DNA of 60,779 nt. Source: a virus (taxonomy: Duplodnaviria > Caudoviricetes). Below, piece by piece: positions 23,612-57,541 of this stretch. Position numbers and translations under genes: made by a program. Every line of letters starts with the position of its first letter. The first letter of the stretch is position 1. The stretch lies in IMG/VR virus record IMGVR_UViG_3300042982_000029, positions 1 to 60,779 of that record; one strand, 5' to 3'. The notes beneath the pieces were generated by a model. That model did no database searches and was not told where the DNA came from. It worked only from the letters and a program-made list of their open reading frames with translations.

Positions 23612-23767
23612 TATAGACATGGAGTGAAGGACGATAATCGCCCCGAGAACCTCGAGCTCTGGTCCAGGAGTCAGCCTGCAGGGCAGCGCGTGGCCGACAA
23701 GGTAGAATGGGCACGACAGATTCTCGCCCTCTACGGCGACGACTACCCGGCCGAGGAGAGCAACTGA
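23612..23767 (+). pseudogene. Remnant C-terminal fragment of an HNH endonuclease
   Basis: Translates as YRHGVKDDNRPENLELWSRSQPAGQRVADKVEWARQILALY, which aligns with HKNGDRADNRIDNLEIWNTAQPSGQRPEDKVEFALEMLLLY of the 13772 HNH; N-terminal part missing. Confidence 0.8.
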
Positions 23768-26700
23768 TGAGCGGCATCGAAGAGCTTGCCCGGCGGCTCC
23801 TGTCGCTCGAGAAGGCCCAGATGGCCCGCTCCACCCCTCAGCTCGCGTACAGCTCGATCGAGAACGGCGCCCTCCGCGCTCACGACGACCTGTTCGGCGA
23901 GACCATGCAGATCGGTCTCCAGTGGGACGGCACGTACGCGCCCACCGTGACCAACGGCCCGACTCCGCCGACCCCGTCCGCGCCGCAGGTCCTGGACGCC
24001 ACTGAGGGCATCGTCGTCGGGTGGGACGGCTCGTTCGCCGGCGGCCTCATCCCGACCCCCATGGACTTCCTCCGCGTCGACGTGCACGTCGGCGCGACCA
24101 GCGACTTCATCCCGGACCACAACAACCGTCGGGCCTCGTTCGCGTCGCCGCAGGGCGGCTTCGCCAGCATCACGCTGGGCTACGGGACGTACTGGGTCAA
24201 GCTGGTGCTGTGGACCCTGGCCGGCAAGGTCAGTGCGGCGTCCACCGCGACCGAGGGCGACTCGTGGCCCGTCGAGGTGAGTTCGGACGGCTTCGCGCCG
24301 GCCAGCTCTCCCGACCCCACCGTCATTGGCGCCTACGAGACCCTCGTCGTCAAGTGGTCCCCGATCAGCAACGCCGACCCGGTCCGCTATCAGGTTCACG
24401 TCTCCACGACCACCGGCTTCACGCCGGGCCCGGACACGCTCGTCGACACCGTCCAGGGCGGCCAGTTCAGCATCAAGACACTGCCCGGCGAGGCGCCCGT
24501 CAACCCCGGCGACGTGGACCCGCGCAAGCTGCAGTACGACACCACGTACTACGTCAGGCTGGTCGCCGAGGACGACGACGGCACCGCCGCCCCGTCCGCC
24601 GAGGCTTCCGACCAGATCTTCCGCATCAACGGCGGCATGATCGGCGCGGAGACCATCGTCGGCGCGAACATCCTCGGTGGCACGATCACCGGCGACCTAC
24701 TGAGCTCCACGATGGTCATCTCGTCGGCGTTCTGGACGGCCCTGACCGGCCAGCGCGCCGGCTTCACCCCGGACGGCTTCTTCGCATACAAGCCTGACAA
24801 CTCGGCCATCCTGAAGATCCCGACCGATGGCAGCAACGCGCTGTACGACGGCGAACTCGTCGTGCGCGGCGCCACGATCCTGGGCGGCATGTCCATCCAG
24901 TCCGACGAGAACGAGCTGACCGCCGACGCCCGGATCACCCTGATGCGTGGCATCGTCTCGCCGACCGCGTCGCCCCAGATGGCCTTGGACTACGAATACG
25001 TCACGCCCAGCACGGCCGGACTGTCCAGCGCCCTGAAGACCGACATCCTTGGGACCTTCGACTTCGACGCGAACCAGATCTCCTGCATCGAGTGGCGAAG
25101 CACGCTGAACTTCTGGTCGATGTTCCAGGTCCGCCCTGGAGGCACGCGCGAGTGGTGGATCAACCCGGACGGTACGCCGCACGACATCACCGGCGCCGGG
25201 GACTACTTCCTCGACTGGAAGGACTGGGAGATCTGGTCGGCGACCGAGCTCCTCACGTCCACCAATCCGGCGCTCAACGGTCACTACCTGATGTTCCGAT
25301 TCATGCCGTCCGGAGACGACTACTGGGTATGCGCGCCGTCGGGAAACTATCGGTACTCGCGCCAAAACGGTATCCAGCCTCCGGTGATCGGGAACAACGG
25401 CCAGAGCATCTTCGTGGCCGAAGTGCCGACCATTGTGACCCCGCAGACCCATCTCCGCATTCGATACTACGAGCCGCTGCTGGACAATGGCGTCATGCCG
25501 GCGCCGACGACAGCGTACGAGTCGACCACGGGCTTCAGCTCGGGCACCGCCCTGGCCAACGTCCGGTACAGCACCACTGGATTCGACGTGTCCGGGGGCT
25601 CCGGCGCTCGCTACCTAGCGGCCGAACGAGGCAACTCGACGAACAACAAGATCCTGGTCACCTCGGGCACGAACGCCGACTCGATCTTCCCATCCGGCTC
25701 GGGCAACAACTGGTCGTCGGCCAACAAGGAGGCCCACTCCTTCGAGGCTCCGGCGTCGAACCGGCGCGGCTGTGACTGGGACGGTACGCAGTTCTGGACG
25801 CTGTCCGGCGATGGTCGGCTGTACAAGCACACGAACCAGTTCTGGGATCCCGCCACGACGTCCTCGACCCTCTGGGGCCAGACCACGTTCCGCGACGGTG
25901 ACTCTGGCGGAACCGGCACGCACGAGACGACTCCCGGCGCGGCGAAGTCCTTCACCTGGAAGCGTCGGTCCCGGTTCACGTTCGTCTCGCCGGACGTGCC
26001 TGACAATGGCGGCCCGGACGACCCGGACCGCGTGCGGTTCTACGTCGGCCGTGGCTTGACCAAGCCGGCCAACTCGGCCATGTTCCAGCAGTACGAGGGC
26101 ACCGGCACGGCGACGATCAGCACGCTCGCGACGTCCGGCAACGTTCCCCCGACCATCAACACGTTCCCGTCGGCCAACCCAGCCAAGATCCGCACCGATG
26201 ACGACGCCCTGGTCATCTCGGGCGACGGCACGATCAAGATCAACGGCGTCGACGTCGCGGTTGGCTCCCCCGTGCGTCAGATCTTCACGAGCTCGGGCAC
26301 GTGGACCAAGCCGGCCAACATCAAGGCCGTGCGGGTTCAGGTGCAGGGCGGTGGCGGCGCGGGTGGCGGTGCGGCTGCACTGTCGGCCGACGGCACGCAC
26401 TCCATGGGTTCCGGCGGCGGCGGCGGCGGGTACGCGGAGAAGTGGTTCCTCGCAGCCGACCTGGCCAGCTCCATTCCGGTCAGCGTTGGCGGCGGCGGCG
26501 TGGGTGCTTCGGCGGCAACCGGCGGCGGCGGCGGTGCATCGAACTTCCAGCACACCACGAACGTCGTCGGCAACGGTGGCGGCGGCGGCGGGCTCTTCGG
26601 GGCGACCGCCCTGGCCCTCGGCCCGGCTGTTGGTCAAGGTGGCTCGGCGACCGGCGGCGACACCAACCAGCAGGGCGGGGGGGGCGTGGCTGGCTGGGGC

Positions 26701-26928
26701 AACGCGGCCTGGGGGGTCGGCGGCGCTGGCGGCAATGCGATCCTGGGGACTGGCGGCGCTGGTCGCGGTACGGCAGCGCAGGGTCCGTACACCGGCTTCG
26801 CAGGGAACAACTACGGCGGCGGCGGCGGCGGCGCTCTGACGGCCCGGACGAACAGCTCGGCTGCCGCAACGGCGGTCGCTGGCGGTAACGGAGCGCCGGG
26901 AATCGTCATCGTCACGGTATACTACTGA
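23767..26928 (+). CDS. Large minor tail / central fibre protein with FN3-like and Gly-rich domains
   Basis: FN3-like segments (LVVKWSP..YQVHVS..YYVRLVA); FTSSGTWTKP..GGGG Gly-rich C-terminus. Confidence 0.8.
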   Translation: MSGIEELARRLLSLEKAQMARSTPQLAYSSIENGALRAHDDLFGETMQIGLQWDGTYAPTVTNGPTPPTPSAPQVLDATEGIVVGWDGSFAGGLIPTPMDFLRVDVHVGATSDFIPDHNNRRASFASPQGGFASITLGYGTYWVKLVLWTLAGKVSAASTATEGDSWPVEVSSDGFAPASSPDPTVIGAYETLVVKWSPISNADPVRYQVHVSTTTGFTPGPDTLVDTVQGGQFSIKTLPGEAPVNPGDVDPRKLQYDTTYYVRLVAEDDDGTAAPSAEASDQIFRINGGMIGAETIVGANILGGTITGDLLSSTMVISSAFWTALTGQRAGFTPDGFFAYKPDNSAILKIPTDGSNALYDGELVVRGATILGGMSIQSDENELTADARITLMRGIVSPTASPQMALDYEYVTPSTAGLSSALKTDILGTFDFDANQISCIEWRSTLNFWSMFQVRPGGTREWWINPDGTPHDITGAGDYFLDWKDWEIWSATELLTSTNPALNGHYLMFRFMPSGDDYWVCAPSGNYRYSRQNGIQPPVIGNNGQSIFVAEVPTIVTPQTHLRIRYYEPLLDNGVMPAPTTAYESTTGFSSGTALANVRYSTTGFDVSGGSGARYLAAERGNSTNNKILVTSGTNADSIFPSGSGNNWSSANKEAHSFEAPASNRRGCDWDGTQFWTLSGDGRLYKHTNQFWDPATTSSTLWGQTTFRDGDSGGTGTHETTPGAAKSFTWKRRSRFTFVSPDVPDNGGPDDPDRVRFYVGRGLTKPANSAMFQQYEGTGTATISTLATSGNVPPTINTFPSANPAKIRTDDDALVISGDGTIKINGVDVAVGSPVRQIFTSSGTWTKPANIKAVRVQVQGGGGAGGGAAALSADGTHSMGSGGGGGGYAEKWFLAADLASSIPVSVGGGGVGASAATGGGGGASNFQHTTNVVGNGGGGGGLFGATALALGPAVGQGGSATGGDTNQQGGGGVAGWGNAAWGVGGAGGNAILGTGGAGRGTAAQGPYTGFAGNNYGGGGGGALTARTNSSAAATAVAGGNGAPGIVIVTVYY

Positions 26929-28403: not shown

Positions 28404-28861
28404 TCACGCTACTTCTCATCCTCGCGGCTGACCCGACCACCTGGGACACCATCATCGGCACGGGCGGCTGGGCCGGCGCGCTCGGCATCATCGCATTCAT
28501 CGCCAAGCAGGGCGTCGACGCCTGGGTGGCCCACCGACGCGACAAGCGGGAGGGCATCGACGCTGAGCAGAAGGAAGTGCTCGGCGAGGTCGGCGCGGCC
28601 GTCGGCAATGCCTCGACCGTCAACGCGCTCATGCTCAAGTCGCTGGAGAACCTGGCGCAGGAGAACGAGCGGCTCCTGGCTCGCAACTCCCACCTCGAGG
28701 ACCTGAACGCCCAGAAGGACGCGAAGATCGACGAGCGGGACAAGACGATCGAGCAGCTCAAGGCCAACCTGGAGGAGTGGGTGTCTCGCGGCCAGCAGTA
28801 CGTCGAGCAGATCACTAACTACCAGCGGCTCCTCCGCGAGCAGGAGGGCGAGGTAGACTAG
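28400..28861 (+). CDS. Membrane-anchored coiled-coil protein (lysis cassette)
   Basis: N-terminal TM segment followed by a long charged coiled coil. Confidence 0.65.
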   Translation: MITLLLILAADPTTWDTIIGTGGWAGALGIIAFIAKQGVDAWVAHRRDKREGIDAEQKEVLGEVGAAVGNASTVNALMLKSLENLAQENERLLARNSHLEDLNAQKDAKIDERDKTIEQLKANLEEWVSRGQQYVEQITNYQRLLREQEGEVD

Positions 28862-36671: not shown

Positions 36672-36866
36672 CTAGACGATGGTGTTGCCGTTGTCAACGC
36701 GGAACCCGAGGTGGTCCGCGATCCGCTGGACGAGCTCGAGCTGCCGCGTCATGCCGGCCCAGCCGTCGTCGTCGTGGTTCGGCTCGGCGATGATGATGCC
36801 GTCGAGCTTGATCTGCAGGGCTTCGTCGTTGATCTCGACGATCTGGAAGCGGGCCGGCGTGCTCAT
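36672..36866 (-). CDS. Hypothetical protein
   Basis: ATGA overlap with the ligase stop. Confidence 0.5.
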   Translation of the reverse strand: MSTPARFQIVEINDEALQIKLDGIIIAEPNHDDDGWAGMTRQLELVQRIADHLGFRVDNGNTIV

Positions 36867-37624
36867 CCGAGCCACACCCCGTTCGACTTCGTCAGCGGCT
36901 CCGGCGGGGTGAACGGCGTGCCCTTCGGGGCCGGATCGAACGGCCACTTGAAGAGCTGCTGGGCGGCCTCGTGGAAGATGACGACGCCCTCAGCCGGCTT
37001 GAAGCCCGGGGCTGCGTGGGAGCCGTGCTCGTCGAGGGCCTGCATGCAGTCCTCGATCTCCTTCTCGTCGAACGGGCCCTCGTACAGGACGGGGACAACG
37101 TCGAGCTCGGGGAGCAGCTCTTCGCCGGTGGCCGGGTCGATCTCGTCCTCGCGGGCGTGGTCGGGATCCCACAGGTGCGGGTACCGGGTCCGGTTGAACA
37201 GGCTGAACCGCCTCTCGCCCTTCGGCAGGCCGTAGCCGCGCTGGATGCCGGAGCCCCACCATTCGCCGTAGTGCCGGCCGACCCCGAGGGTCACCAGGAG
37301 CTGCTCGGCGTTCTCGAAGACCCAGGCGGCGAACCCGAAGTTGTCCTTCTCGGGCGTGATGAGCTGCTTGCGAGACTGGGCGCCGACCAGGAACAGCTTG
37401 GCGTTGGCTCCCTCGCCGCGCCGGAACGATCGGGCCTCGTACCGCCCCTCGCCGGGTCCGCCGAGCCAGGTGGTCAGCGTCGACCGGTCGGAGACCTCGA
37501 GGTCCGGGCGCGGGTCGGGGATCGCCTCGATGATCACGGCCGCGTTGGTGCCGTCGATCTTCTCGGTGACGACGATGTCCTTGTGGAGTCGGGGCAGCTT
37601 GGGCCAGGCGACGAAGTCCATCAT
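36863..37624 (-). CDS. RNA ligase, Rnl2-like family
   Basis: Motif I TEKIDGTNA, AQSRKQ, YGEWWGSGIQ, VPVLYEG, AEGVV. Confidence 0.8.
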   Translation of the reverse strand: MMDFVAWPKLPRLHKDIVVTEKIDGTNAAVIIEAIPDPRPDLEVSDRSTLTTWLGGPGEGRYEARSFRRGEGANAKLFLVGAQSRKQLITPEKDNFGFAAWVFENAEQLLVTLGVGRHYGEWWGSGIQRGYGLPKGERRFSLFNRTRYPHLWDPDHAREDEIDPATGEELLPELDVVPVLYEGPFDEKEIEDCMQALDEHGSHAAPGFKPAEGVVIFHEAAQQLFKWPFDPAPKGTPFTPPEPLTKSNGVWLG

Positions 37625-37830
37625 CCGAGTCCCTCCGTCTCCCAGGCAGCGTACTGCTTGTCGTCGTCGTACTCGTGGTCGCCGAACTCGATCTCCGACG
37701 CGGCCACGCCGGTCCGGTCGGCCAGGTAGTCGAACGCCTTGGCCAGGGCGTTCAGCTCCTGGCCGTTGGTCGGCCGGTTGAACGTGACCCGAATGTCGAG
37801 CTTGTCCGGCTTGTTGTCCGGGATGCCCAT
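37621..37830 (-). CDS. Hypothetical protein
   Basis: GAGGAG RBS; first gene after the promoter. Confidence 0.6.
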   Translation of the reverse strand: MGIPDNKPDKLDIRVTFNRPTNGQELNALAKAFDYLADRTGVAASEIEFGDHEYDDDKQYAAWETEGLG

Positions 37831-37868
37831 GGGTGCTCCTCTCGCTGGGAAAGTATCTGCTGAGTGGT

Positions 37869-37897
37869 ACTTTGCCAGCTTTCCCCGGGCATGTCAA
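37869..37897 (-). promoter_or_regulatory. SigA-like leftward promoter
   Basis: TTGACA-N17-CAAAGT with a TGn extension. Confidence 0.6.
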
Positions 37898-41576: not shown

Positions 41577-42554
41577 TTAGAACGCGCCCGGGGCGACCTG
41601 CAGGCAGGTCAAACCCAGCGAGCGCCACATCTCCACGACCTGGTCGCGGTCGTCCAGTACGAACTGGACGTCGTAGATGTGACGGACGTGCTCGTTGAAC
41701 AGCTCCAGCTTGACGACCGAGTCGCGCCGGTTGTCCCCCTCGGGCCGCATGAACAGCTCAACATTGCGGTCCAGGCGCTCGTCCGGGTCGTCGAAGGTGT
41801 CAGCCTCCAGGATCAGCTCAGCGTCGCGCTCGAGCCAGAGCAGCGTGTCCGCGCGGCAGACCTCGTCGCGGCCGGACATGAAGATCACGTGCGCGTCGTC
41901 GCCCCGGTCGGTGTACGAGAACTTGTACCGCTCGACGAGCTCGGCGATCGGGATGTTGACGTCGTCCTCGAGTACCCGGTCCCAGTCGTACGCCTTGCGG
42001 CCGTTCATCAGGGCCAGCGTGCCGTCCAGGTCCACCAGGATCGCCTTCGGCGCGCCCTCGACCGGCACGTACGGCTTGGAGTCCTCGCCCAGGACAGGCT
42101 CGTACGGCGGCACCGGTGGCAGGCCGCCGGCGATGTTGAACCGGACGAACTGGTTCTGGATGACGTGCGCGCCGACGCGGTGGAGCACGTCTCGCTGGGC
42201 GTCCTGTGCCTTGCAGAGCTCGATCGGCACGTGGAGGAAGTGGTCGACGACGTCGAACTCGGCGCCCTCCTCGTACGCGATCTTCGAGAACTGCCGGGCG
42301 TGCTTCAGTGCCAGGTTGGTGTCGTCGACCACGACGGTGTGGCCGCGCCGGAGCAGCGTGCGGATCGTGTCCTGCTGGATCTTCGTGACGGTCACTTCGA
42401 ACTCGTGGCCGTGCTGGTACCCGCCAAACAGCATCGCCCGAAGGTCGTCGCGGTTCACGCGGTGCCGGTTGGCGATGTCCTGCGCGCAGAAGTCCTTCGC
42501 CCAGGTGGTCTTGCCGGATCCGGACGGGCCTCGCGTGATGATCAGCTTGCTCAA
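41577..42554 (-). CDS. pnk: Polynucleotide 5'-kinase/3'-phosphatase (T4 Pnkp-like)
   Basis: GPSGSGKTT, NRDDLR, VVDDTNL; HAD motif DLDGTLA; LDDRDQVVEMWRSLGLTCLQVAPGAF. Confidence 0.93.
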   Translation of the reverse strand: MSKLIITRGPSGSGKTTWAKDFCAQDIANRHRVNRDDLRAMLFGGYQHGHEFEVTVTKIQQDTIRTLLRRGHTVVVDDTNLALKHARQFSKIAYEEGAEFDVVDHFLHVPIELCKAQDAQRDVLHRVGAHVIQNQFVRFNIAGGLPPVPPYEPVLGEDSKPYVPVEGAPKAILVDLDGTLALMNGRKAYDWDRVLEDDVNIPIAELVERYKFSYTDRGDDAHVIFMSGRDEVCRADTLLWLERDAELILEADTFDDPDERLDRNVELFMRPEGDNRRDSVVKLELFNEHVRHIYDVQFVLDDRDQVVEMWRSLGLTCLQVAPGAF

Positions 42555-43206: not shown

Positions 43207-43440
43207 TTAGACCTCCGGTGGTTTGTGCGACTCGAGCGGCACCTCGTAGAGGAACGTCGCTGGCTCGAACTGACCTTCGTACTCCGGGTAGCGTAGCGCG
43301 GGCCGACCGTCACTGTCAACGATGATGCCCAGAATGCGGACACTTCCCGAGTCAACGTCGGCCGTCAGCGCGACGACCGGGTTGCGGACGCCGTACTCCC
43401 CGACGGCGTCCGCGAGCAGATTGCCCAGTGTCTTGCTCAC
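43207..43440 (-). CDS. Hypothetical protein
   Basis: GTGA overlap with the ligase stop. Confidence 0.5.
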   Translation of the reverse strand: MSKTLGNLLADAVGEYGVRNPVVALTADVDSGSVRILGIIVDSDGRPALRYPEYEGQFEPATFLYEVPLESHKPPEV

Positions 43441-44591
43441 TTGATGTACAGCTTCGGCTCGTAGGAACCCGGGGTCTGGCCGGCCGGCGGCTGCAGGTCC
43501 TTCCAGATCCGCTTCGTGATGTCCTTGCCGTCGAGCTGCGCGAAGAACGCCCAGGCGTCCTCCTCGGCCTCCTGGAACAGCCGCGCCAGGGCGCCACGCT
43601 TGTCCCGGTCGACGTACCAGCCCTCCTCCTCGTCCAGGCCGACCAGACCGCCCTTGAATGCGTACGACATGGTGTTCTGGTACGAGTCGACCAGGTCGCG
43701 GTATCGGCGCTTGAAGTTGTTCTGGATCTCCGTGTAAACGCCACGGGTCCAGGCGTGGAACTCGTCCGGCAGCGGCTCGAGGATGTCGCCGATGACCTGG
43801 CCGTCCAGGATCGCCTCGTAGACGCGGCGGGTCGACAGGCCGAACACGATCCGGTGCAGCAGCAGGTAGTCCTCCTGCTTCAGCTTCACCATCTTGTCGG
43901 TGCCGCGCTGCCGTACGACGTAGCCCTCGGCGTTCGGCCGGGGCGGGGCCGCCAGGGCGTCCGCGAAGGTCGCGAAGTGGAAGTGATCGGCGCGCGGGCC
44001 GGTCCAGCCGTGGAAGTTGGCCGTGACGCGAGTGTTGTTCACGAACCCCGTCTCGAGCTCGACCGAGCCCAGCAGCACCAGCATGTCGGCGTCGCCGTAG
44101 TCCAGCACGATCCGGTTGTCCGGGTAGACGATCTCGAACAGGATCGTGTCGTCGTCGGCCGGCACGAAGTCGCTGTACTCGCGGTCGAACAGCTCGGTGG
44201 CGTGGACGGCCTGGTCGGACGTGAACGACCCGCGCGTCGCGATCGCGTAGCCGCCCGCGTTCGGCCGGCGGTACAGGATGCCGAGCGAGCCGTCGACCTT
44301 GTCCTGGACCTCGACCTCGGCGTCCAGTGGGATCTGCGCGGCCTGCGGCTGGCCGTGGTTCCAGAACTTCGGGAACGGCCGGGCGACGATCGTGCCATCC
44401 GTCGTGTTCCAGATCAGCCCACGGCAGTAGTTCAGCGAGGGGACCTGCTCGAATAGCTCGGGCTTGGTCTGCGCACGGTCGGTGTAGTTGATGATCCGCA
44501 GCGGCTCGGTCGGGTGGGTCTGCTCGCGGATGTAGCCGTTGGCCAGCAGCCAGCCGAGCTCGTCGGCCGGGGTCAGGTCGTACAGGTGCAC
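43437..44591 (-). CDS. RNA ligase, T4 Rnl1-like
   Basis: CRGLI..VARPFPKFWN, motif I KVDGSLG, ATRGSF, FEIVYP.NRIV, AEGYVV, VKLK. Confidence 0.92.
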   Translation of the reverse strand: MHLYDLTPADELGWLLANGYIREQTHPTEPLRIINYTDRAQTKPELFEQVPSLNYCRGLIWNTTDGTIVARPFPKFWNHGQPQAAQIPLDAEVEVQDKVDGSLGILYRRPNAGGYAIATRGSFTSDQAVHATELFDREYSDFVPADDDTILFEIVYPDNRIVLDYGDADMLVLLGSVELETGFVNNTRVTANFHGWTGPRADHFHFATFADALAAPPRPNAEGYVVRQRGTDKMVKLKQEDYLLLHRIVFGLSTRRVYEAILDGQVIGDILEPLPDEFHAWTRGVYTEIQNNFKRRYRDLVDSYQNTMSYAFKGGLVGLDEEEGWYVDRDKRGALARLFQEAEEDAWAFFAQLDGKDITKRIWKDLQPPAGQTPGSYEPKLYIK

Positions 44592-44678: not shown

Positions 44679-44716
44679 GACAAGCCCCGGCGGGTGTCGG
44701 CCCGCCAGGGCTTGTC
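44679..44716 (-). terminator. Terminator of the tRNA operon
   Basis: GACAAGCCC..GGCGGG/CCCGCC..GGGCTTGTC stem followed by TCATTTCTT on the minus strand. Confidence 0.72.
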
Positions 44717-44902
44717 GGTCCGGGTTGGATTTAGAGGGCCCGTACCCCTTGACGGCATGCGCTCCGGCGAGGCGGGCATTTGCGGGTGCCAGCCGGGCAG
44801 TAAGGTGCCAGCTAAGGGTCGAACCTTCCGGATTTGGCCGAACGATAGCGCCCCCGTGAGCACGAACTCGTCCTGCTGGTCCACCGGCCAGACGTTACCC
44901 TG

Positions 44903-44977
44903 TAGGCCCCGTGGGACTCGAACCCACAACCCTCCCGGTAAGAGCGGGATGCGCTAATCCAATTGCGCCAGAGACCC
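44903..44977 (-). tRNA. tRNA-Lys(CTT), CCA not encoded
   Basis: Cloverleaf GGGTCTC/GGGGCCT, D arm GCGC/GCGC, anticodon arm TCCCG-CTCTTAC-CGGGA, T loop TTCGAGT. Confidence 0.8.
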
Positions 44978-45069
44978 TCGCGGGAGTGCCGGATCGGGGT
45001 CATCACTCCGCCGCCGGCTGGCCAGTCGATGATCCCCGGAATCCCTTCCGAGGTACTGGCCCTCCCTCG

Positions 45070-45142
45070 CTCCGAAGGCAGGACTCGAACCTGCAACCCT
45101 GGGATCAACAATCCCCTGCTCTACCAGTTGAGCCACTTCGGA
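45070..45142 (-). tRNA. tRNA-Asn(GTT)
   Basis: Acceptor TCCGAAG/CTTCGGA, G73, anticodon loop TTGTTGA, T loop TTCGAGT. Confidence 0.88.
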
Positions 45143-45143
45143 A

Positions 45144-45226
45144 TGGTGGAGCTGTCGGGAATCGAACCCGCGTCCTGCCCGTTCCGCAAGCGGTCTTACG
45201 GGCAGTCGATGCCAATGCTCAGCCCC
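45144..45226 (-). ncRNA. Miniature tmRNA-like RNA: tRNA-like domain only, no mRNA-like domain
   Basis: GGGGCTG/CAGCTCC-ACCA acceptor with G3.U70; stemless D loop ending GG..TCGAC; 7-bp P2a TGCCCGT/ACGGGCA capped by a short hairpin; GGAC linker; T loop TTCGATT. Confidence 0.8.
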
Positions 45227-45306
45227 TCGGGCCTACCTTGCCACTGTCCGGCTGCATGCTCCCCGGCCTCTCGGCGGTCGAACCGGCCATCGTTCCGACT
45301 CTTTCG

Positions 45307-45379
45307 CGGTCGAGACGGGACTCTAACCCGCAACCGACGCCTCGACAGGGCGCTGCTCTCCCAATTGAGCTACTCGACC
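45307..45379 (-). tRNA. tRNA-Asp(GTC)
   Basis: Acceptor GGTCGAG/CTCGACC, G73, anticodon loop CTGTCGA; variant T loop TTAGAGT. Confidence 0.83.
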
Positions 45380-45493
45380 AATGCCGCTGGTGGGTGCACC
45401 CTGTCGGGATCACTCAGGCCGGCCTGATTCTCCCTGTAGACCCCGAGCCGCCAACGGACTCTCCAACTCGGGCGCTGAATGAGTCAGCTCTCG

Positions 45494-45566
45494 TGCGCGA
45501 TCCCGGATTTGAACCAGGGACATCCGGCGTTTGGGCCGGCGCTCTACCAGGCTGAGCTAATCGCAC
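45494..45566 (-). tRNA. tRNA-like gene with a Val-like body and an aberrant 6-nt anticodon loop
   Basis: Acceptor GTGCGAT/ATCGCGC, A73, canonical D and T arms; anticodon arm CCGGC-CCAAAC-GCCGG lacking U33. Confidence 0.7.
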
Positions 45567-45644
45567 AGCGGCTACCATGTCTCCGCTTACCCGAGGATCA
45601 ATTTCACCGATCTGACCTTTCAGCCAAACCCCTCGGCCCTTCCG

Positions 45645-45716
45645 CATCGGACGAGGGATTTGAACCCTCACTACGGGGTTGAGAACCCCGCGTGCTGCCG
45701 ATTACACCAGCCCGAC
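45645..45716 (-). tRNA. tRNA-Glu(CTC)
   Basis: Acceptor GTCGGGC/GTCCGAT, G73, anticodon arm CGGGG-TTCTCAA-CCCCG, short variable loop. Confidence 0.85.
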
Positions 45717-45818
45717 TCGACGGCACCGCGAGGGTTTGCCCAACAGGGGTTGACACCCTGTCCAAGCCGCGTTGCACCGTCTTTCGCTCAGGGCCCACCC
45801 CTGGGATCCCTTCGCTAG

Positions 45819-45891
45819 TGGCGGGAGTCGGACTCGAACCGACAAACGCTGGGTCATGAGCCCAGTGTGCATTCCATCGCACCATCCCGCT
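45819..45891 (-). tRNA. tRNA-Met(CAT), initiator-like
   Basis: A1xC72 mismatch; three G-C pairs in the anticodon stem CTGGG/CCCAG; loop CTCATGA. Confidence 0.85.
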
Positions 45892-55203: not shown

Positions 55204-55893
55204 TCAGGCCTCCTTCTTCGTGCGACGCCACGCGGTCCACGTGACCGCCTGCACCTCGGCCGGCGTGATGCCGGGAAACTCTTTCTGGAGCTGGTCGGCG
55301 GCCCGCTCGTATGCTCGCACGAAGCTCTCGTACGCGCCCTTCCTGCCCAGCACGATGCCCCGCGTCCGGTCGTCCATGACCCGGCCGACAGCCACGTCGA
55401 ACGCGTGCCGGTCGATCACAATGCCGCGCGGGTCGTTCGGGTTGGCGATCGCGTGGTAGAACGCGGTCACCTTCGGACCGGACACGACCTCTTCGGGCGG
55501 GACGCCCTGCAGGATCAGTTGGGCCTTGGTGCCGTTCACCTTCAGGCCAGGCCAGGCCCAGTCGACAACGACCTTCTCGGCGACCGGAGGCATGACACCG
55601 TCACGCTTGGAGTCGGCGTTGATCTCGTACGCCAGTCGCGCCAGCTCGACGTTTTTCGCCCAGGACAAGCGCGGGGAGATGACCGCGATGACACCGACCG
55701 CACGCTCAACGGCTCGTTCGACCGAGTCGTTCGGCGTGACGAAAAAGGTGCCGTACTGCTCGACTAGGTCGAACGCCAGGTTCAACGCGGAGCGATACCA
55801 GGCGCGGCCCTCGTGGATCTCGTCCAGCGTGGCCGAGCCGAACGCCTTCAGGATGTTCGGGGTGGTCGGTCGTGCGGTGACTCTCGTGTTCAT
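55204..55893 (-). CDS. DUF7178-like protein (putative HhH-type glycosylase fold)
   Basis: GRAWY, IAVISPRLSWAKN, GPKVTAFY, IVIDRHA, PAEVQAVTW. Confidence 0.65.
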   Translation of the reverse strand: MNTRVTARPTTPNILKAFGSATLDEIHEGRAWYRSALNLAFDLVEQYGTFFVTPNDSVERAVERAVGVIAVISPRLSWAKNVELARLAYEINADSKRDGVMPPVAEKVVVDWAWPGLKVNGTKAQLILQGVPPEEVVSGPKVTAFYHAIANPNDPRGIVIDRHAFDVAVGRVMDDRTRGIVLGRKGAYESFVRAYERAADQLQKEFPGITPAEVQAVTWTAWRRTKKEA

Positions 55894-55917
55894 GCTCGTT
55901 CAGCTCCTCGGTTGGTA

Positions 55918-55975
55918 GGCCTTGATGCCCCGGCAACACCACAGACCGTAGTCTGTGGTGCTCCCAGATGTCAAG
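55918..55975 (-). promoter_or_regulatory. Repeated promoter cassette, copy 1
   Basis: CTTGACATCTGGGAGC-[10-bp stem, TACGGT -10]-GTTGCCGGGGCATCAAGGCC. Confidence 0.7.
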
Positions 55976-55976
55976 A

Positions 55977-57541
55977 TCAGACCGTGGCGGCCGGTTGGCG
56001 CGGCGGGTAGACCGTCGGCACAGCCGGAGCGTGGAAGATCTGGATCACGCGCAGCGCCAGACCAGCGCCGCCCGGGTTGAAGTGCCGCCACGCGACCAGG
56101 TAGTCGGGCGCGTCCGGCCCCGCCATGACCTTCTCGGCAGACTTCACCATCGACTCGTACGAGCGGAACGTGCGAGTCTTGAAGAACGGGCCCCGCAGTT
56201 GGTAGGGGTGGCTGTAGTTCGAGTAGCTGACGTAGCTACCATCCTCGCGGGTGTGGTTCGTCTCATGCATTGTAGATGCTCCGTCCGTTGGCCTCGTCTG
56301 CGTGGATTGCGAGCGCCAACCCGGCCTCGCTCTTGTCGCCGCCCGTGCCGGATCCGAAGACCTCACCGCACCGGCACGTCTCAGTGAACTCACCGAGCTC
56401 GTAGTCCTGGCCCGGCCCGGGCCACACCTCGCCGGTCTTGCGATACCCGGCGCCGTCCTGAGTCCAGCCGTGCGCCGGGACGATCACGATCTGACCGCTG
56501 TGGTCGCTGTGCTCGTCCAGCTCGATGTGTTCGGTGAACGGGTAGTCCTCACGCTTGAGCGACAGCGCGCCGCGCTTGAGCACGCGGGCCTTGGCCACCT
56601 TGTGGCGACCGCCGAACGCGTCGAAAACCCAGTCACCGGGCCGGAGCTGGTCGAAGTCCACGCGGACCGCGTCCAGATGCACGATCGTGATGTCGACCAT
56701 TGCCAGGTTCGATGTGACTTGACTCACTGCTCAGCCCTCCTCGGCTGCCCGCAGGATCAGCTCGCGCTGGTCGGCGGGTACTTTCTGACTGGTCAGGAAC
56801 GCCTTGATCGGGCGGACAGCCGCCCGCAGCTCAGCATCCGTGATGTCCTCGCGCTCTTGCAGCTCGTCCGCTGCGTGCGTGGTGGACTGAATGTGTCGCA
56901 TCGCCGACTGCGCAGCTCGGGCAGGCTTGGGCCAGTGCGCCCAGCCGTCCGAGTGGTCGTCGGCCCACGTGGCCAGGTTGCGCACGATCAGCGCCAGAGC
57001 CAGCCGGTTAGGCTTGCTCGCACGGATGAACCTGTGGATCGCGCCGGTATAGTCCCACTCGTTCATGTACAGCACGGCTCACGCCTCCCGGATCTGGTCG
57101 CCGGACAGGCCGAGCTCGACCAGCTTGCGTGTGGCCTGCGTGCGGTCCCGCCGGGTGTTGCGCGGCGCGTGGACCGTGGACTGACGGAACCGTCCAGCCG
57201 TCGGACGGGTGATCCGCTCGAAACCGGCCTCGGTGTCATCGTACTTGTTGACTCGCATGATCACTCCAGTGATCTCGTGTGCTAGGCCTTGTGCCCAGCA
57301 CCCTTGGAACTACCCGGCTCCCGCATCGCTCGTGGCGGAGAGAGCCGGGTAGGACTAGGGGTGCTCAGTACGTGCCGGACATGAAGTCCTTGAGCTGTGG
57401 CATGGGGTGGTCTCGCTTGTACTCGGCGAGCTCGGTCTCGTAGAGGCTGGTTGCCGCCTCTGCAGCGTTCAACCAAACCTCCTTGGCCAGGTCGAACGCG
57501 TCCATCATCCTGCCGTGTCGGCAAGTGCAACGGACGCCCAT
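55977..57541 (-). other. Cluster of small hypothetical early genes (approx. 55977-56270, 56263-56727, 56731-57075, 57079-57258, 57365-57541)
   Basis: Contiguous minus-strand ORFs with RBS-like elements; no recognisable domains. Confidence 0.55.

What the first reader, a model, noticed from the sequence alone, without database searches (positions are those of the whole stretch)
45144..45226. Phage-encoded miniature tmRNA: tRNA-like domain with no mRNA-like domain
Seen in sequence: the minus strand reads GGGGCTG AGCATTGGCATCGAC TGCCCGT AAGACCGCTTGCGGA ACGGGCA GGAC GCGGG TTCGATT CCCGA CAGCTCC ACCA (83 nt). It has the Ala identity elements G3.U70 and A73 and is the only RNA in the cluster with an encoded CCA. 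It also has a stemless D loop ending GG..TCGAC, a 7-bp helix in place of the anticodon arm and a GAC linker into the T arm. Established knowledge: these are the signatures of the SmpB-binding tRNA-like domain of tmRNA, whose ends in bacteria read GGGGCTG...TCGAC and GAC.CGGGTTC..TCCCG.CAGCTCCACCA. A normal tmRNA inserts roughly 270-300 nt of pseudoknots and a tag ORF inside that helix; here the helix is closed by a 15-nt cap. The order is not circularly permuted, so this is not a two-piece tmRNA. Both ends are intact with a clean cap, which argues for a selected element rather than an att-site scar. Inference: it could (a) titrate SmpB and block trans-translation, (b) rescue stalled ribosomes without degradation tagging, or (c) add template-independent Ala tails. 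Its position beside anticodon-variant tRNAs and RNA-repair enzymes suggests counter-defence against translation-targeting nucleases.
Basis: partly seen in the sequence, partly recalled or inferred. Interest (0 to 1): 0.92.

Follow-up and report, generated by a model that had tools for sequence, protein, structure and literature searches.

The report
Phage tag-less mini-tmRNA (DS6A type)
This soil actinophage carries a real 83-base gene that is only the alanine-accepting, tRNA-like end of the bacterial ribosome-rescue RNA (tmRNA); the type was first reported in mycobacteriophage DS6A, is common but unannotated in phages, and probably interferes with the host's rescue-and-tagging system.

Summary
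Window 45144-45226 (minus strand) matches the Rfam tmRNA model above its cut-off (59.8 bits, cut-off 47), with about 300 internal model positions missing. It has the alanine acceptor stem (G3.U70, A73, CCA), a D-loop analogue, helix P2a and a T arm. The 15-nt "cap" is the P2a/P2b junction bulge plus a short P2b stub.

It is not a new kind. A "TLD only" tmRNA was reported for mycobacteriophage DS6A and said to inhibit E. coli tmRNA. The DS6A element is also 83 nt and homologous along its whole length. This scan found the same type before on other DNA.

New here:
- Two pattern scans gave 166 viral contigs and 133 unique sequences.
- Covariation is strong.
- Alanine identity is invariant in 48 of 48 members found without constraining the acceptor stem.
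- The closest relative phage also carries the short form.
- Six further cultured phages carry it unannotated.
- None of the 8 genomes checked has a full-length tmRNA, and none of the 6 checked has SmpB.

The likeliest role is competition with host tmRNA for SmpB and stalled ribosomes. The link to RNA-repair genes does not hold across the family (10 of 166 loci).

The parts
45144..45226 (-). Whole 83-nt TLD-only (CDS-less) tmRNA gene
   Evidence: RF00023 59.8 bits, E 6.9e-21. Family model R1 67.3 bits. No ARAGORN call.
45220..45226 (-). Acceptor stem, 5' strand (GGGGCTG), with G3 of the G3.U70 pair
   Evidence: Read. It pairs 7 of 7 with 45148-45154.
45206..45219 (-). D-loop analogue (14 nt, with GG and ending in TCGA)
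   Evidence: Aligned to the unpaired D region of RF00023.
45198..45205 (-). Helix P2a, 5' strand (8 nt)
   Evidence: It pairs 8 of 8 with 45175-45182. All 8 family columns show compensatory changes.
45194..45197 (-). A-rich 5' bulge (AAGA) at the P2a/P2b junction
   Evidence: It corresponds to the 3-nt bulge after P2a in the RF00023 structure line. It is A-rich across the family.
45184..45193 (-). P2b stub hairpin (CCGCTTGCGG: 3 pairs plus a 4-nt loop) standing where the pseudoknots and tag ORF would be
   Evidence: Folded. All 3 stub pairs covary in the family. DS6A and the relative L146 have the same stub.
45183..45183 (-). Single-base 3' bulge opposite the A-rich bulge
   Evidence: It matches the 1-nt 3' bulge between P2b and P2a in RF00023.
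45175..45182 (-). Helix P2a, 3' strand
45172..45174 (-). GAC linker into the T arm
   Evidence: GAC is found in 82 of 107 family sequences although the search pattern did not fix it.
45155..45171 (-). T arm (stem GCGGG/CCCGA, loop TTCGATT); the first pair is a G.A mismatch
   Evidence: The window is the only one of 107 sequences with G.A at this pair.
45148..45154 (-). Acceptor stem, 3' strand (CAGCTCC), with U70
45144..45147 (-). Discriminator A73 and encoded CCA
   Evidence: CCA is encoded in only 47 of 119 and 8 of 48 family members.
44902..45891 (-). tRNA array that holds the element. The order on the minus strand is Met, Glu, odd tRNA, Asp, TLD-only tmRNA, Asn, Lys. One base separates the element from tRNA-Asn.
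   Evidence: ARAGORN, Rfam tRNA hits, sequence.
44679..44716 (-). Terminator-like hairpin (16-pair stem) after tRNA-Lys; probable end of the array's transcript
   Evidence: This is a consensus scan only. 1 site was found against 1.2 expected in shuffles, so it is weak on its own.
43437..44591 (-). Context only: Rnl1-type RNA ligase gene downstream of the array
   Evidence: PF09511 E 1.2e-11; phrog_562 E 1.5e-59. No functional link to the element is shown.
41577..42554 (-). Context only: polynucleotide kinase (Pnkp-type) gene
   Evidence: phrog_505 E 9.8e-90. No functional link to the element is shown.

Best explanation
The element is a gene for a small RNA that is only the tRNA-like domain of tmRNA. 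It has the acceptor stem with the alanine identity set, a D-loop analogue, a T arm, and helix P2a closed by the P2a/P2b junction and a short P2b stub. It has no resume codon, no tag reading frame and no pseudoknots. It belongs to a widespread phage family whose first reported member is the DS6A 'TLD only' tmRNA. The proposed mechanism has five steps. (1) It is transcribed with the tRNA array and cut out like a tRNA; this is inferred from the 1-nt spacing to tRNA-Asn. (2) Host alanyl-tRNA synthetase charges it; this is inferred from G3.U70 and A73 being invariant across the family. (3) It binds host SmpB, since the phage encodes none; this is inferred from homology to the SmpB-binding domain. 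(4) It competes with host tmRNA for SmpB and for stalled ribosomes. (5) Because it carries no template, normal trans-translation and ssrA tagging of stalled products are blocked or diverted during infection. Step 4 is the only one with experimental backing, and that is for the DS6A homologue in E. coli. I know of that experiment only through two papers that cite it.
For: Identity: RF00023 scores 59.8 bits against a cut-off of 47, over the full model with the middle deleted. The DS6A element (NC_023744.1 28478-28560, 83 nt, 43.2 bits) aligns along its whole length, including the stub hairpin. Family: scan 1 returned 120 viral contigs (capped), and 119 of them have a 7-of-7 acceptor stem. ARAGORN calls none of these a tRNA and only 3 a tmRNA. 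Scan 2 returned 62 contigs and was complete; 46 were new. There are 133 unique sequences in all. Structure: on 100 sequences, 95.4% of cells pair, against 65.9% in shuffles and 44-52% in slid registers. 19 of 23 pairs show compensatory changes. The covariation score is 0.657 against 0.135, reached by 0 of 500 shuffles. An anchor-based count that fits no model agrees. Charging: in scan 2, which left the acceptor stem unconstrained, 62 of 62 hits have a perfect 7-pair stem. Among the 48 unique sequences, pairs 1-2 are G-C, pair 3 is G.U and the discriminator is A in all 48, while pairs 4-7 covary. Lineage: the closest relative phage (exonuclease 77% identical) has an 82-nt element of the same design (75.4 bits) with three compensatory pair changes in P2a. 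Dependence on the host: there is no SmpB in the window or in 5 other carrier genomes. No tmRNA-model match longer than 83 nt was found in any of the 8 carrier genomes. Literature, from passages I read: Hudson et al. 2014 list DS6A as 'TLD only' and say that a similar molecule, chargeable or not, strongly inhibits tmRNA, perhaps by titrating SmpB. Nawrocki et al. 2025 say the DS6A form was shown to inhibit endogenous tmRNA in E. coli.
Against: There is no expression, charging or SmpB-binding evidence for this element or any relative in its natural host. No RNA run holds the stretch. I could not read the key experiment (Mao et al. 2009). As cited, an uncharged variant also inhibited, so the invariant alanine identity is not explained by titration alone and points to a step on the ribosome. 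The window's T stem starts with a G.A mismatch, unique among 107 sequences, so this copy could be slightly impaired. Why a phage would gain from blocking trans-translation is inferred, not shown. The MFE z-score of the single sequence is modest (-2.3).
Confidence: 0.6

Rival explanations
1. Productive tag-less rescue or alanine tailing. The charged RNA, with host SmpB and EF-Tu, enters stalled ribosomes and donates one or more alanines. The chain is then released by drop-off or by back-up release factors. The gain to the phage is freed ribosomes, with products that escape the ssrA degron or receive a minimal alanine tail, and not inhibition as such.
For: The alanine identity set is invariant in 48 of 48 members found without constraining the acceptor stem, which suggests charging is under selection. 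Himeno et al. 2014 (passages) report that SmpB with a TLD fragment supports polyalanine synthesis without a template (citing Shimizu and Ueda 2006). Naturally CDS-less tmRNAs in mitochondria and two plastids are thought to still help with incomplete mRNAs (Nawrocki et al. 2025).
Against: The only in-vivo result cited for a homologue is inhibition of tmRNA, and it did not depend on charging. No release mechanism is encoded: I did not search specifically for release-factor-like genes, and only SmpB was tested. No data show alanine-extended proteins.
Confidence: 0.25
2. A tRNA-like element with no role in trans-translation, for example a processing signal for RNase P inside the non-coding array, or a decoy for a host nuclease or toxin that attacks tRNAs.
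For: It sits in a tRNA array next to Rnl1 and Pnkp repair genes. 24 of 119 family members lie within 500 nt of a tRNA.
Against: tRNAs in the array already supply processing sites. Features specific to tmRNA are conserved and covary, namely the UCGA...GAC junction, P2a, and the P2a/P2b bulge and stub, which a bare processing signal would not need. Repair homologues are found near only 10 of 166 family loci. DS6A has the element with no annotated tRNA at all.
Confidence: 0.08
3. A non-functional remnant: an attP core or integration scar, a deletion derivative of a full-length phage tmRNA, or an assembly artefact.
For: Some phages do carry tmRNA 3' ends as attP cores (cluster K1, a 24-bp core; passages). 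This copy has a G.A mismatch in the T stem.
Against: Both halves are present and form a full acceptor stem. The window has no tyrosine or serine integrase. A second assembler's contig spans the region with 0 differences. The closest relative carries the same short design with compensatory changes. The family covaries.
Confidence: 0.02

Closest known systems
'TLD only' / CDS-less tmRNA of Mycobacterium phage DS6A (tmRNA Website tmID 11587; Mao et al. 2009 as cited by Hudson et al. 2014 and Nawrocki et al. 2025)
   Same: Same length (83 nt) and the same parts in the same order: alanine acceptor stem, D-loop analogue ending in TCGA, P2a, A-rich bulge, CCGC-nn-GCGG stub, T arm. Both score with the family model (window 67.3 bits, DS6A 64.9). 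Neither genome has a full-length tmRNA or SmpB. Both are actinophages of about 60 kb.
   Different: The phages are only distantly related (terminase 33%, portal 28% identity). DS6A's copy stands alone after the lysis genes, with no annotated tRNAs, and ends CTA. The window's copy lies in a tRNA array and encodes CCA. DS6A scores below the Rfam cut-off (43.2 bits) and the window scores above it (59.8).
Standard one-piece bacterial and phage tmRNA (Rfam RF00023), e.g. the 403-nt tmRNA of mycobacteriophage PegLeg
   Same: The tRNA-like domain, P2a and the P2a/P2b junction are homologous and align to the model's two ends.
   Different: There is no mRNA-like domain, no resume codon or tag ORF and no pseudoknots. 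About 300 model positions are absent. PegLeg and the roughly 131-kb phage L126 have full-length forms of 403 and 269 nt.
CDS-less organellar tmRNAs (jakobid and oomycete mitochondria; two Mallomonadaceae plastid genes of about 65 bp)
   Same: Natural tmRNA homologues reduced to the tRNA-like part, with no tag frame (Nawrocki et al. 2025, passage).
   Different: Those are the organelle's own rescue RNA and work with a co-evolved, imported SmpB. The phage form enters a cell that already has a full tmRNA. I did not compare sequences.
Synthetic TLD fragments used in structural and in-vitro work (5' 25 and 3' 34 residues joined by a UUCG loop; Bessho 2007, Shimizu and Ueda 2006, as cited in Himeno et al. 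2014)
   Same: The same idea: a TLD with P2a closed by a small loop. Such fragments bind SmpB and support polyalanine synthesis in vitro (passages).
   Different: Those are engineered. The natural family keeps the A-rich junction bulge and a P2b stub, and these are conserved.

Membership tests
tmRNA (Rfam RF00023, standard one-piece) | Score at or above the curated gathering threshold | tested here: met
   59.8 bits against 47.
tmRNA (Rfam RF00023, standard one-piece) | tRNA-like domain: 7-pair acceptor stem with G3.U70, discriminator A, T arm, D-loop analogue | tested here: met
   Read; aligned. The first T-stem pair is G.A.
tmRNA (Rfam RF00023, standard one-piece) | mRNA-like domain with a resume codon, tag reading frame and stop | tested here: not met
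   Only 15 nt lie between the P2a strands, and 302 model positions are replaced by 9 bases. ARAGORN finds no tag.
tmRNA (Rfam RF00023, standard one-piece) | Pseudoknots PK1-PK4 | tested here: not met
   There is no sequence available for them.
tmRNA (Rfam RF00023, standard one-piece) | Alanylation by AlaRS and binding to SmpB and EF-Tu | not testable with these tools
   Indirect only: the alanine identity set is invariant in 48 of 48 unbiased members.
TLD-only (CDS-less) phage tmRNA, DS6A type | Full-length homology to the DS6A element, including the closing stub | tested here: met
   Alignment A1 has 83% mean column identity. Both score 65-67 bits with model R1, which was built from 16 other members.
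TLD-only (CDS-less) phage tmRNA, DS6A type | P2a closed after the junction, total length about 60-90 nt, structure supported by covariation | tested here: met
   19 of 23 pairs show compensatory changes.
TLD-only (CDS-less) phage tmRNA, DS6A type | Inhibits host tmRNA function in vivo | not testable with these tools
   Reported for DS6A in E. coli, known to me only through citing papers. Mao 2009 is not held.
tRNA-Ala | Cloverleaf with D arm, anticodon arm and an alanine anticodon | tested here: not met
   No ARAGORN call. The best Rfam clan member is tmRNA, not tRNA. The middle is an 8-pair helix with a bulge and stub.
Two-piece (permuted) tmRNA | 3' acceptor half encoded upstream of the 5' half | tested here: not met
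   The order is collinear. There is no RF04321 or other permuted-model hit in the window at gathering score.
Phage attP core derived from the 3' end of host tmRNA | Only the 3' part of tmRNA is present, next to an integrase | tested here: not met
   Both halves are present. There is no PF00589 or PF00239 match in six frames.

The most novel reading that the evidence does not exclude
The family is not a passive SmpB sponge. It is a charge-dependent phage device that recruits host AlaRS, EF-Tu and SmpB to add untemplated alanine to chains on stalled ribosomes. This would be a minimal 'alanine-tail' system that either frees ribosomes without the ssrA degron or installs a different, phage-controlled fate for stalled products. 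The absolute conservation of G3.U70 and A73 (48 of 48 when unconstrained), the conserved P2a/P2b junction and the in-vitro polyalanine activity of TLD fragments all fit this. That alanine tails can act as degrons in some bacteria is recalled by me and comes from no call.
Probability: 0.25. Interest if true: 0.8.

Novelty: new member of a known kind. Interest (0 to 1): 0.45.

Why it matters
The kind is known from a single phage (DS6A) and, as cited, one heterologous experiment. This work adds four things:
- The short form is a large, structurally conserved phage family, with 166 viral contigs from two pattern scans, one of which was capped.
- Standard tools mostly miss it. ARAGORN called 3 of 119, and Rfam missed the relative's copy.
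- Its alanine identity is under strict selection.
- It occurs, unannotated, in culturable systems such as Streptomyces phages BRock, LuckySocke, Alone3 and pSt2308, and Stenotrophomonas virus Jojan60.

This makes an old question testable in harmless hosts: what do phages gain by tampering with trans-translation, and does a message-less tmRNA block rescue or perform a tag-less version of it? For this particular window the result is ordinary: one more member of the family.

Tried and rejected
- Megablast of the 1.2-kb cluster against GenBank phages found nothing.
- blastn of the 83 nt found 189 records, but none covering 80% or more. These were only the conserved 3' ends of full-length tmRNAs.
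- The cluster M lead (PegLeg and others) turned out to be an annotated 403-nt full-length tmRNA.
- The Melnitz and AcrIIIA1 papers were not relevant.
- Relatives found through the Rnl1 ligase were distant (45% identity or less), mostly phages of about 131 kb. The one of these I scanned, L126, has a full-length tmRNA.
- MAFFT alignment A2 put the 5' acceptor strand out of register. I replaced it with an anchor-based count and a model-based alignment.
- The same pattern in bacterial genomes (capped at 120) gave 81 matches with a 7-of-7 acceptor stem: 15 ordinary tRNAs, 3 tmRNA calls and 63 uncalled. Most of the uncalled ones belong to a different 72-nt family, so this scan did not identify the host.
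- BLAST with member L006 found no cultured phage.
- The RNA-repair association was rejected as a family trait: 10 of 166 loci, at BLAST-level sensitivity within about 5 kb.
- Expression: no RNA holder is listed for this stretch, so nothing can be said either way.
- Mao et al. 2009 and Jacob et al. 2004 are not held, and supplements are closed. Tables of phage tmRNAs in supplements, for example of the Melnitz paper or the 2025 database paper, might list further short forms that I could not see.
- I dropped an idea that the cap derives from pseudoknot 1, because it rested on a recalled sequence. The P2b-stub reading replaced it.
- Complex prediction was not used because it does not take RNA.
- Claim 'not in print beyond DS6A': this rests on searches of the held library only.

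Full report
WHAT IS THERE. The window is a complete IMG/VR viral contig of 60,779 bp. CheckV completeness is 100 and G+C is 66.7%. Its terminase matches only actinobacteriophages, best at 43.6% identity. The one sequencing run that holds it is a soil metagenome.

Rfam's tmRNA model matches those exact coordinates end to end: 59.8 bits against a cut-off of 47, E 6.9e-21, with 302 internal model positions replaced by 9 bases. ARAGORN calls the six flanking tRNAs (Met, Glu, an odd tRNA, Asp, Asn, Lys) but not this element.

ANATOMY. The parts are:
- a 7-pair acceptor stem with G3.U70, then A73 and an encoded CCA
- a 14-nt D-loop analogue ending in TCGA
- an 8-pair helix P2a
- a 4-nt A-rich bulge
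- a 10-nt hairpin
- a 1-nt bulge
- the GAC linker
- a T arm whose first pair is G.A

The structure line of RF00023 on full-length phage tmRNAs shows P2a followed by a 3-nt 5' bulge and a 1-nt 3' bulge, and then P2b. So the 'cap' is the P2a/P2b junction with the first pairs of P2b closed by a small loop, exactly where the pseudoknots and tag frame would be inserted. One base separates the CCA from tRNA-Asn. A terminator-like hairpin follows tRNA-Lys. A second assembler's 5,994-nt contig spans the region with no difference, though possibly from the same sample.

IT IS A KNOWN KIND. Hudson, Lau and Williams 2014 (passages read) list 'Mycobacterium phage DS6A (TLD only)'. They state that a similar molecule, chargeable or not, strongly inhibits tmRNA, perhaps by titrating SmpB, citing Mao et al. 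2009. Nawrocki, Petrov and Williams 2025 (passages) say the DS6A form was reported before and shown to inhibit endogenous tmRNA in E. coli. They place it beside CDS-less tmRNAs of mitochondria and two plastids. Mao et al. 2009 is not held, so I saw nothing of it.

In the DS6A record the element is unannotated. The tmRNA model finds it at 28478-28560: 83 nt, 43.2 bits, below the cut-off. It aligns with the window's element over its whole length, including the stub hairpin. The two phages are only distant relatives, with terminase 33% and portal 28% identical.

Earlier notes of this scan reached the same closest-known on other DNA. I saw them after finding DS6A myself.

A LARGE, CONSERVED FAMILY. 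Of these, 119 have a 7-of-7 acceptor stem and 105 are unique. ARAGORN calls none a tRNA and 3 a tmRNA. CCA is encoded in 47 of 119. A tRNA lies within 500 nt in 24 of 119.

A second pattern, anchored only on internal features, gave 62 contigs. This scan was complete, and 46 of the contigs were new. Together they give 133 unique sequences. A rough mark-recapture estimate gives about 270 contigs for the first pattern alone. That pattern catches only 36 of the 62 second-pattern hits. Locus G+C spans 31-68%.

An anchor-based count on 107 sequences, fitted to no model, gives 73-99% standard pairs at P2a positions 1-6, with 4-6 pair types each, against 29-54% in slid registers. The T stem, which the pattern did not constrain, pairs in 99-100%.

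A covariance model (R1) built from 16 same-length members aligned 100 sequences. On these, 95.4% of cells pair, against 65.9% shuffled and 44-52% slid. 19 of 23 pairs show compensatory changes, including 8 of 8 in P2a and 3 of 3 in the stub. The covariation score is 0.657 against 0.135, reached by 0 of 500 shuffles. That alignment is fitted to the model, which favours it. The anchor-based count does not have this bias.

ALANINE IDENTITY. The first pattern fixed the acceptor ends, so it cannot show that they are conserved. The second pattern left them free. All 62 hits have a perfect 7-pair stem. Among the 48 unique sequences, pairs 1 and 2 are G-C, pair 3 is G.U and the discriminator is A in all 48, while pairs 4-7 take 3-5 pair types each. 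I chose the best of 12 offsets for the 5' strand, which inflates pairing somewhat but cannot produce this pattern. Members found by other routes also keep G3.U70 while neighbouring pairs differ: Alone3 and the relative's 62-nt element.

THE 'ONE-OFF DELETION' TEST. The closest relative phage is L146, a 59,380-bp contig with CheckV completeness 100, whose exonuclease is 77% identical. It has tRNA Met, Asn and Lys. Right after tRNA-Lys lies an 82-nt element of the same design, scoring 75.4 bits with R1. Against the window's P2a it shows three pair changes on both sides and two on one side, with all 8 pairs kept. My patterns and Rfam's threshold both missed it. L146 also has a weaker 62-nt TLD-like element. 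Neither phage has a full-length tmRNA.

CULTURED CARRIERS. The following carry full-length matches in unannotated gaps of tRNA clusters or under small 'hypothetical protein' calls:
- Streptomyces phage LuckySocke (82.7 bits with R1)
- Streptomyces phage pSt2308 (80.7 bits)
- Streptomyces phage BRock (74.0 bits)
- Streptomyces phage Alone3 (55.5 bits)
- Stenotrophomonas virus Jojan60 (84.3 bits)
- Streptomyces phage GiJojo (by BLAST only)

The BRock genome note mentions tmRNA only in its ARAGORN reference.

In 8 of 8 carrier genomes, no tmRNA-model match exceeds 83 nt. In 6 of 6 checked there is no SmpB.

CONTEXT IN THIS PHAGE. An Rnl1-type ligase (43437-44591), a polynucleotide kinase (41577-42554) and an Rnl2-type ligase (36863-37897) lie nearby. 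This is real but not general. Only 10 of 166 family loci show a homologue of these genes or of DS6A's RtcB. The close relative lacks them beside its array. No integrase of either class is present, which removes the attP reading. Cluster K1 phages illustrate that reading with their 24-bp tmRNA core.

MECHANISM. Shown here: the RNA has every sequence feature of the SmpB-binding, alanine-accepting domain and none of the message. The features are under selection. The phage must rely on host SmpB. Shown by others, as cited: the DS6A form inhibits tmRNA in E. coli, and a TLD fragment with SmpB makes polyalanine on ribosomes without a template.

Inferred: it is cut out with the tRNAs, charged with alanine, and competes with host tmRNA for SmpB and stalled ribosomes, so that ssrA tagging is blocked or diverted. 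The strict conservation of alanine identity suggests the RNA acts on the ribosome and not merely as a sponge. Whether the outcome is inhibition or tag-less rescue stays open.

VERDICT. The novelty and the counter-defence inference are not supported. This is a new member of a known, little-studied kind. The family-level facts, namely breadth, covariation, invariant alanine identity and cultured carriers, are what is useful here.

Noticed in passing
window 45493-45566 (-): This tRNA has normal acceptor, D and T arms (Rfam tRNA 50.8 bits) but a 6-nt anticodon loop. ARAGORN reports a 2-base 'anticodon' and no isotype.
   Followed up: partly
window 25965-26029 (+): Rfam hit to the L31-Actinobacteria ribosomal-protein leader, just over its cut-off (36.8 bits against 35, E 0.001). 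It lies inside a 1073-codon ORF (23707-26928), so it is probably a chance match.
   Followed up: no
L146:6864-6925 (+): The closest relative phage has a second, 62-nt TLD-like element between tRNA-Asn and tRNA-Lys. It has an alanine-type acceptor stem (G3.U70, A73) and a T arm, but only a 4-pair hairpin in the middle (RF00023 36 bits, R1 27.9 bits). It may be a further-reduced form or a decaying copy.
   Followed up: partly
L152, L163, L170 and about 45 other genome-contig loci (e.g. L163:2978-3049): A separate 72-nt alanine-type tRNA-like family occurs in Eremiobacterota, Vulcanimicrobiota and Baltobacteraceae MAGs. It has G3.U70 and A73 and an anticodon-arm-like stem-loop, but no GAC linker, and ARAGORN does not call it. 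It scores only 34-35 bits with R1, and some loci hold two copies.
   Followed up: partly
L269:1339-1464 (+) (Streptomyces phage Alone3): An unannotated tRNA-like gene (Rfam tRNA 37.5 bits) with a 62-nt insertion in the anticodon loop, directly upstream of the phage's TLD-only element. It may be an intron-bearing tRNA.
   Followed up: no
L002:3301-3714 (+) (Mycobacterium phage PegLeg, record about 55846-56259): A strong GOLLD RNA match (RF02032, 216 bits against a cut-off of 150) lies among the tRNA genes. It is not listed among the record's annotated features for that stretch.
   Followed up: no
W02:12707-12782, W06:12889-12964, W05:28249-28324 (LuckySocke, Alone3, pSt2308): Each of these Streptomyces phages has a second, weaker 76-nt match to the tmRNA model (26-30 bits), about 5 kb upstream of the TLD-only element. 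I did not examine them.
   Followed up: no
L168, L175, L187, L188, L193, L194, L207, L233, L238, L244 (Nostocales genomes): An 81-nt TLD-only-type element recurs in several Nostoc and related cyanobacterial assemblies (R1 40-52 bits for the two I scored). I presume these are in prophages, but I did not look at the context.
   Followed up: no
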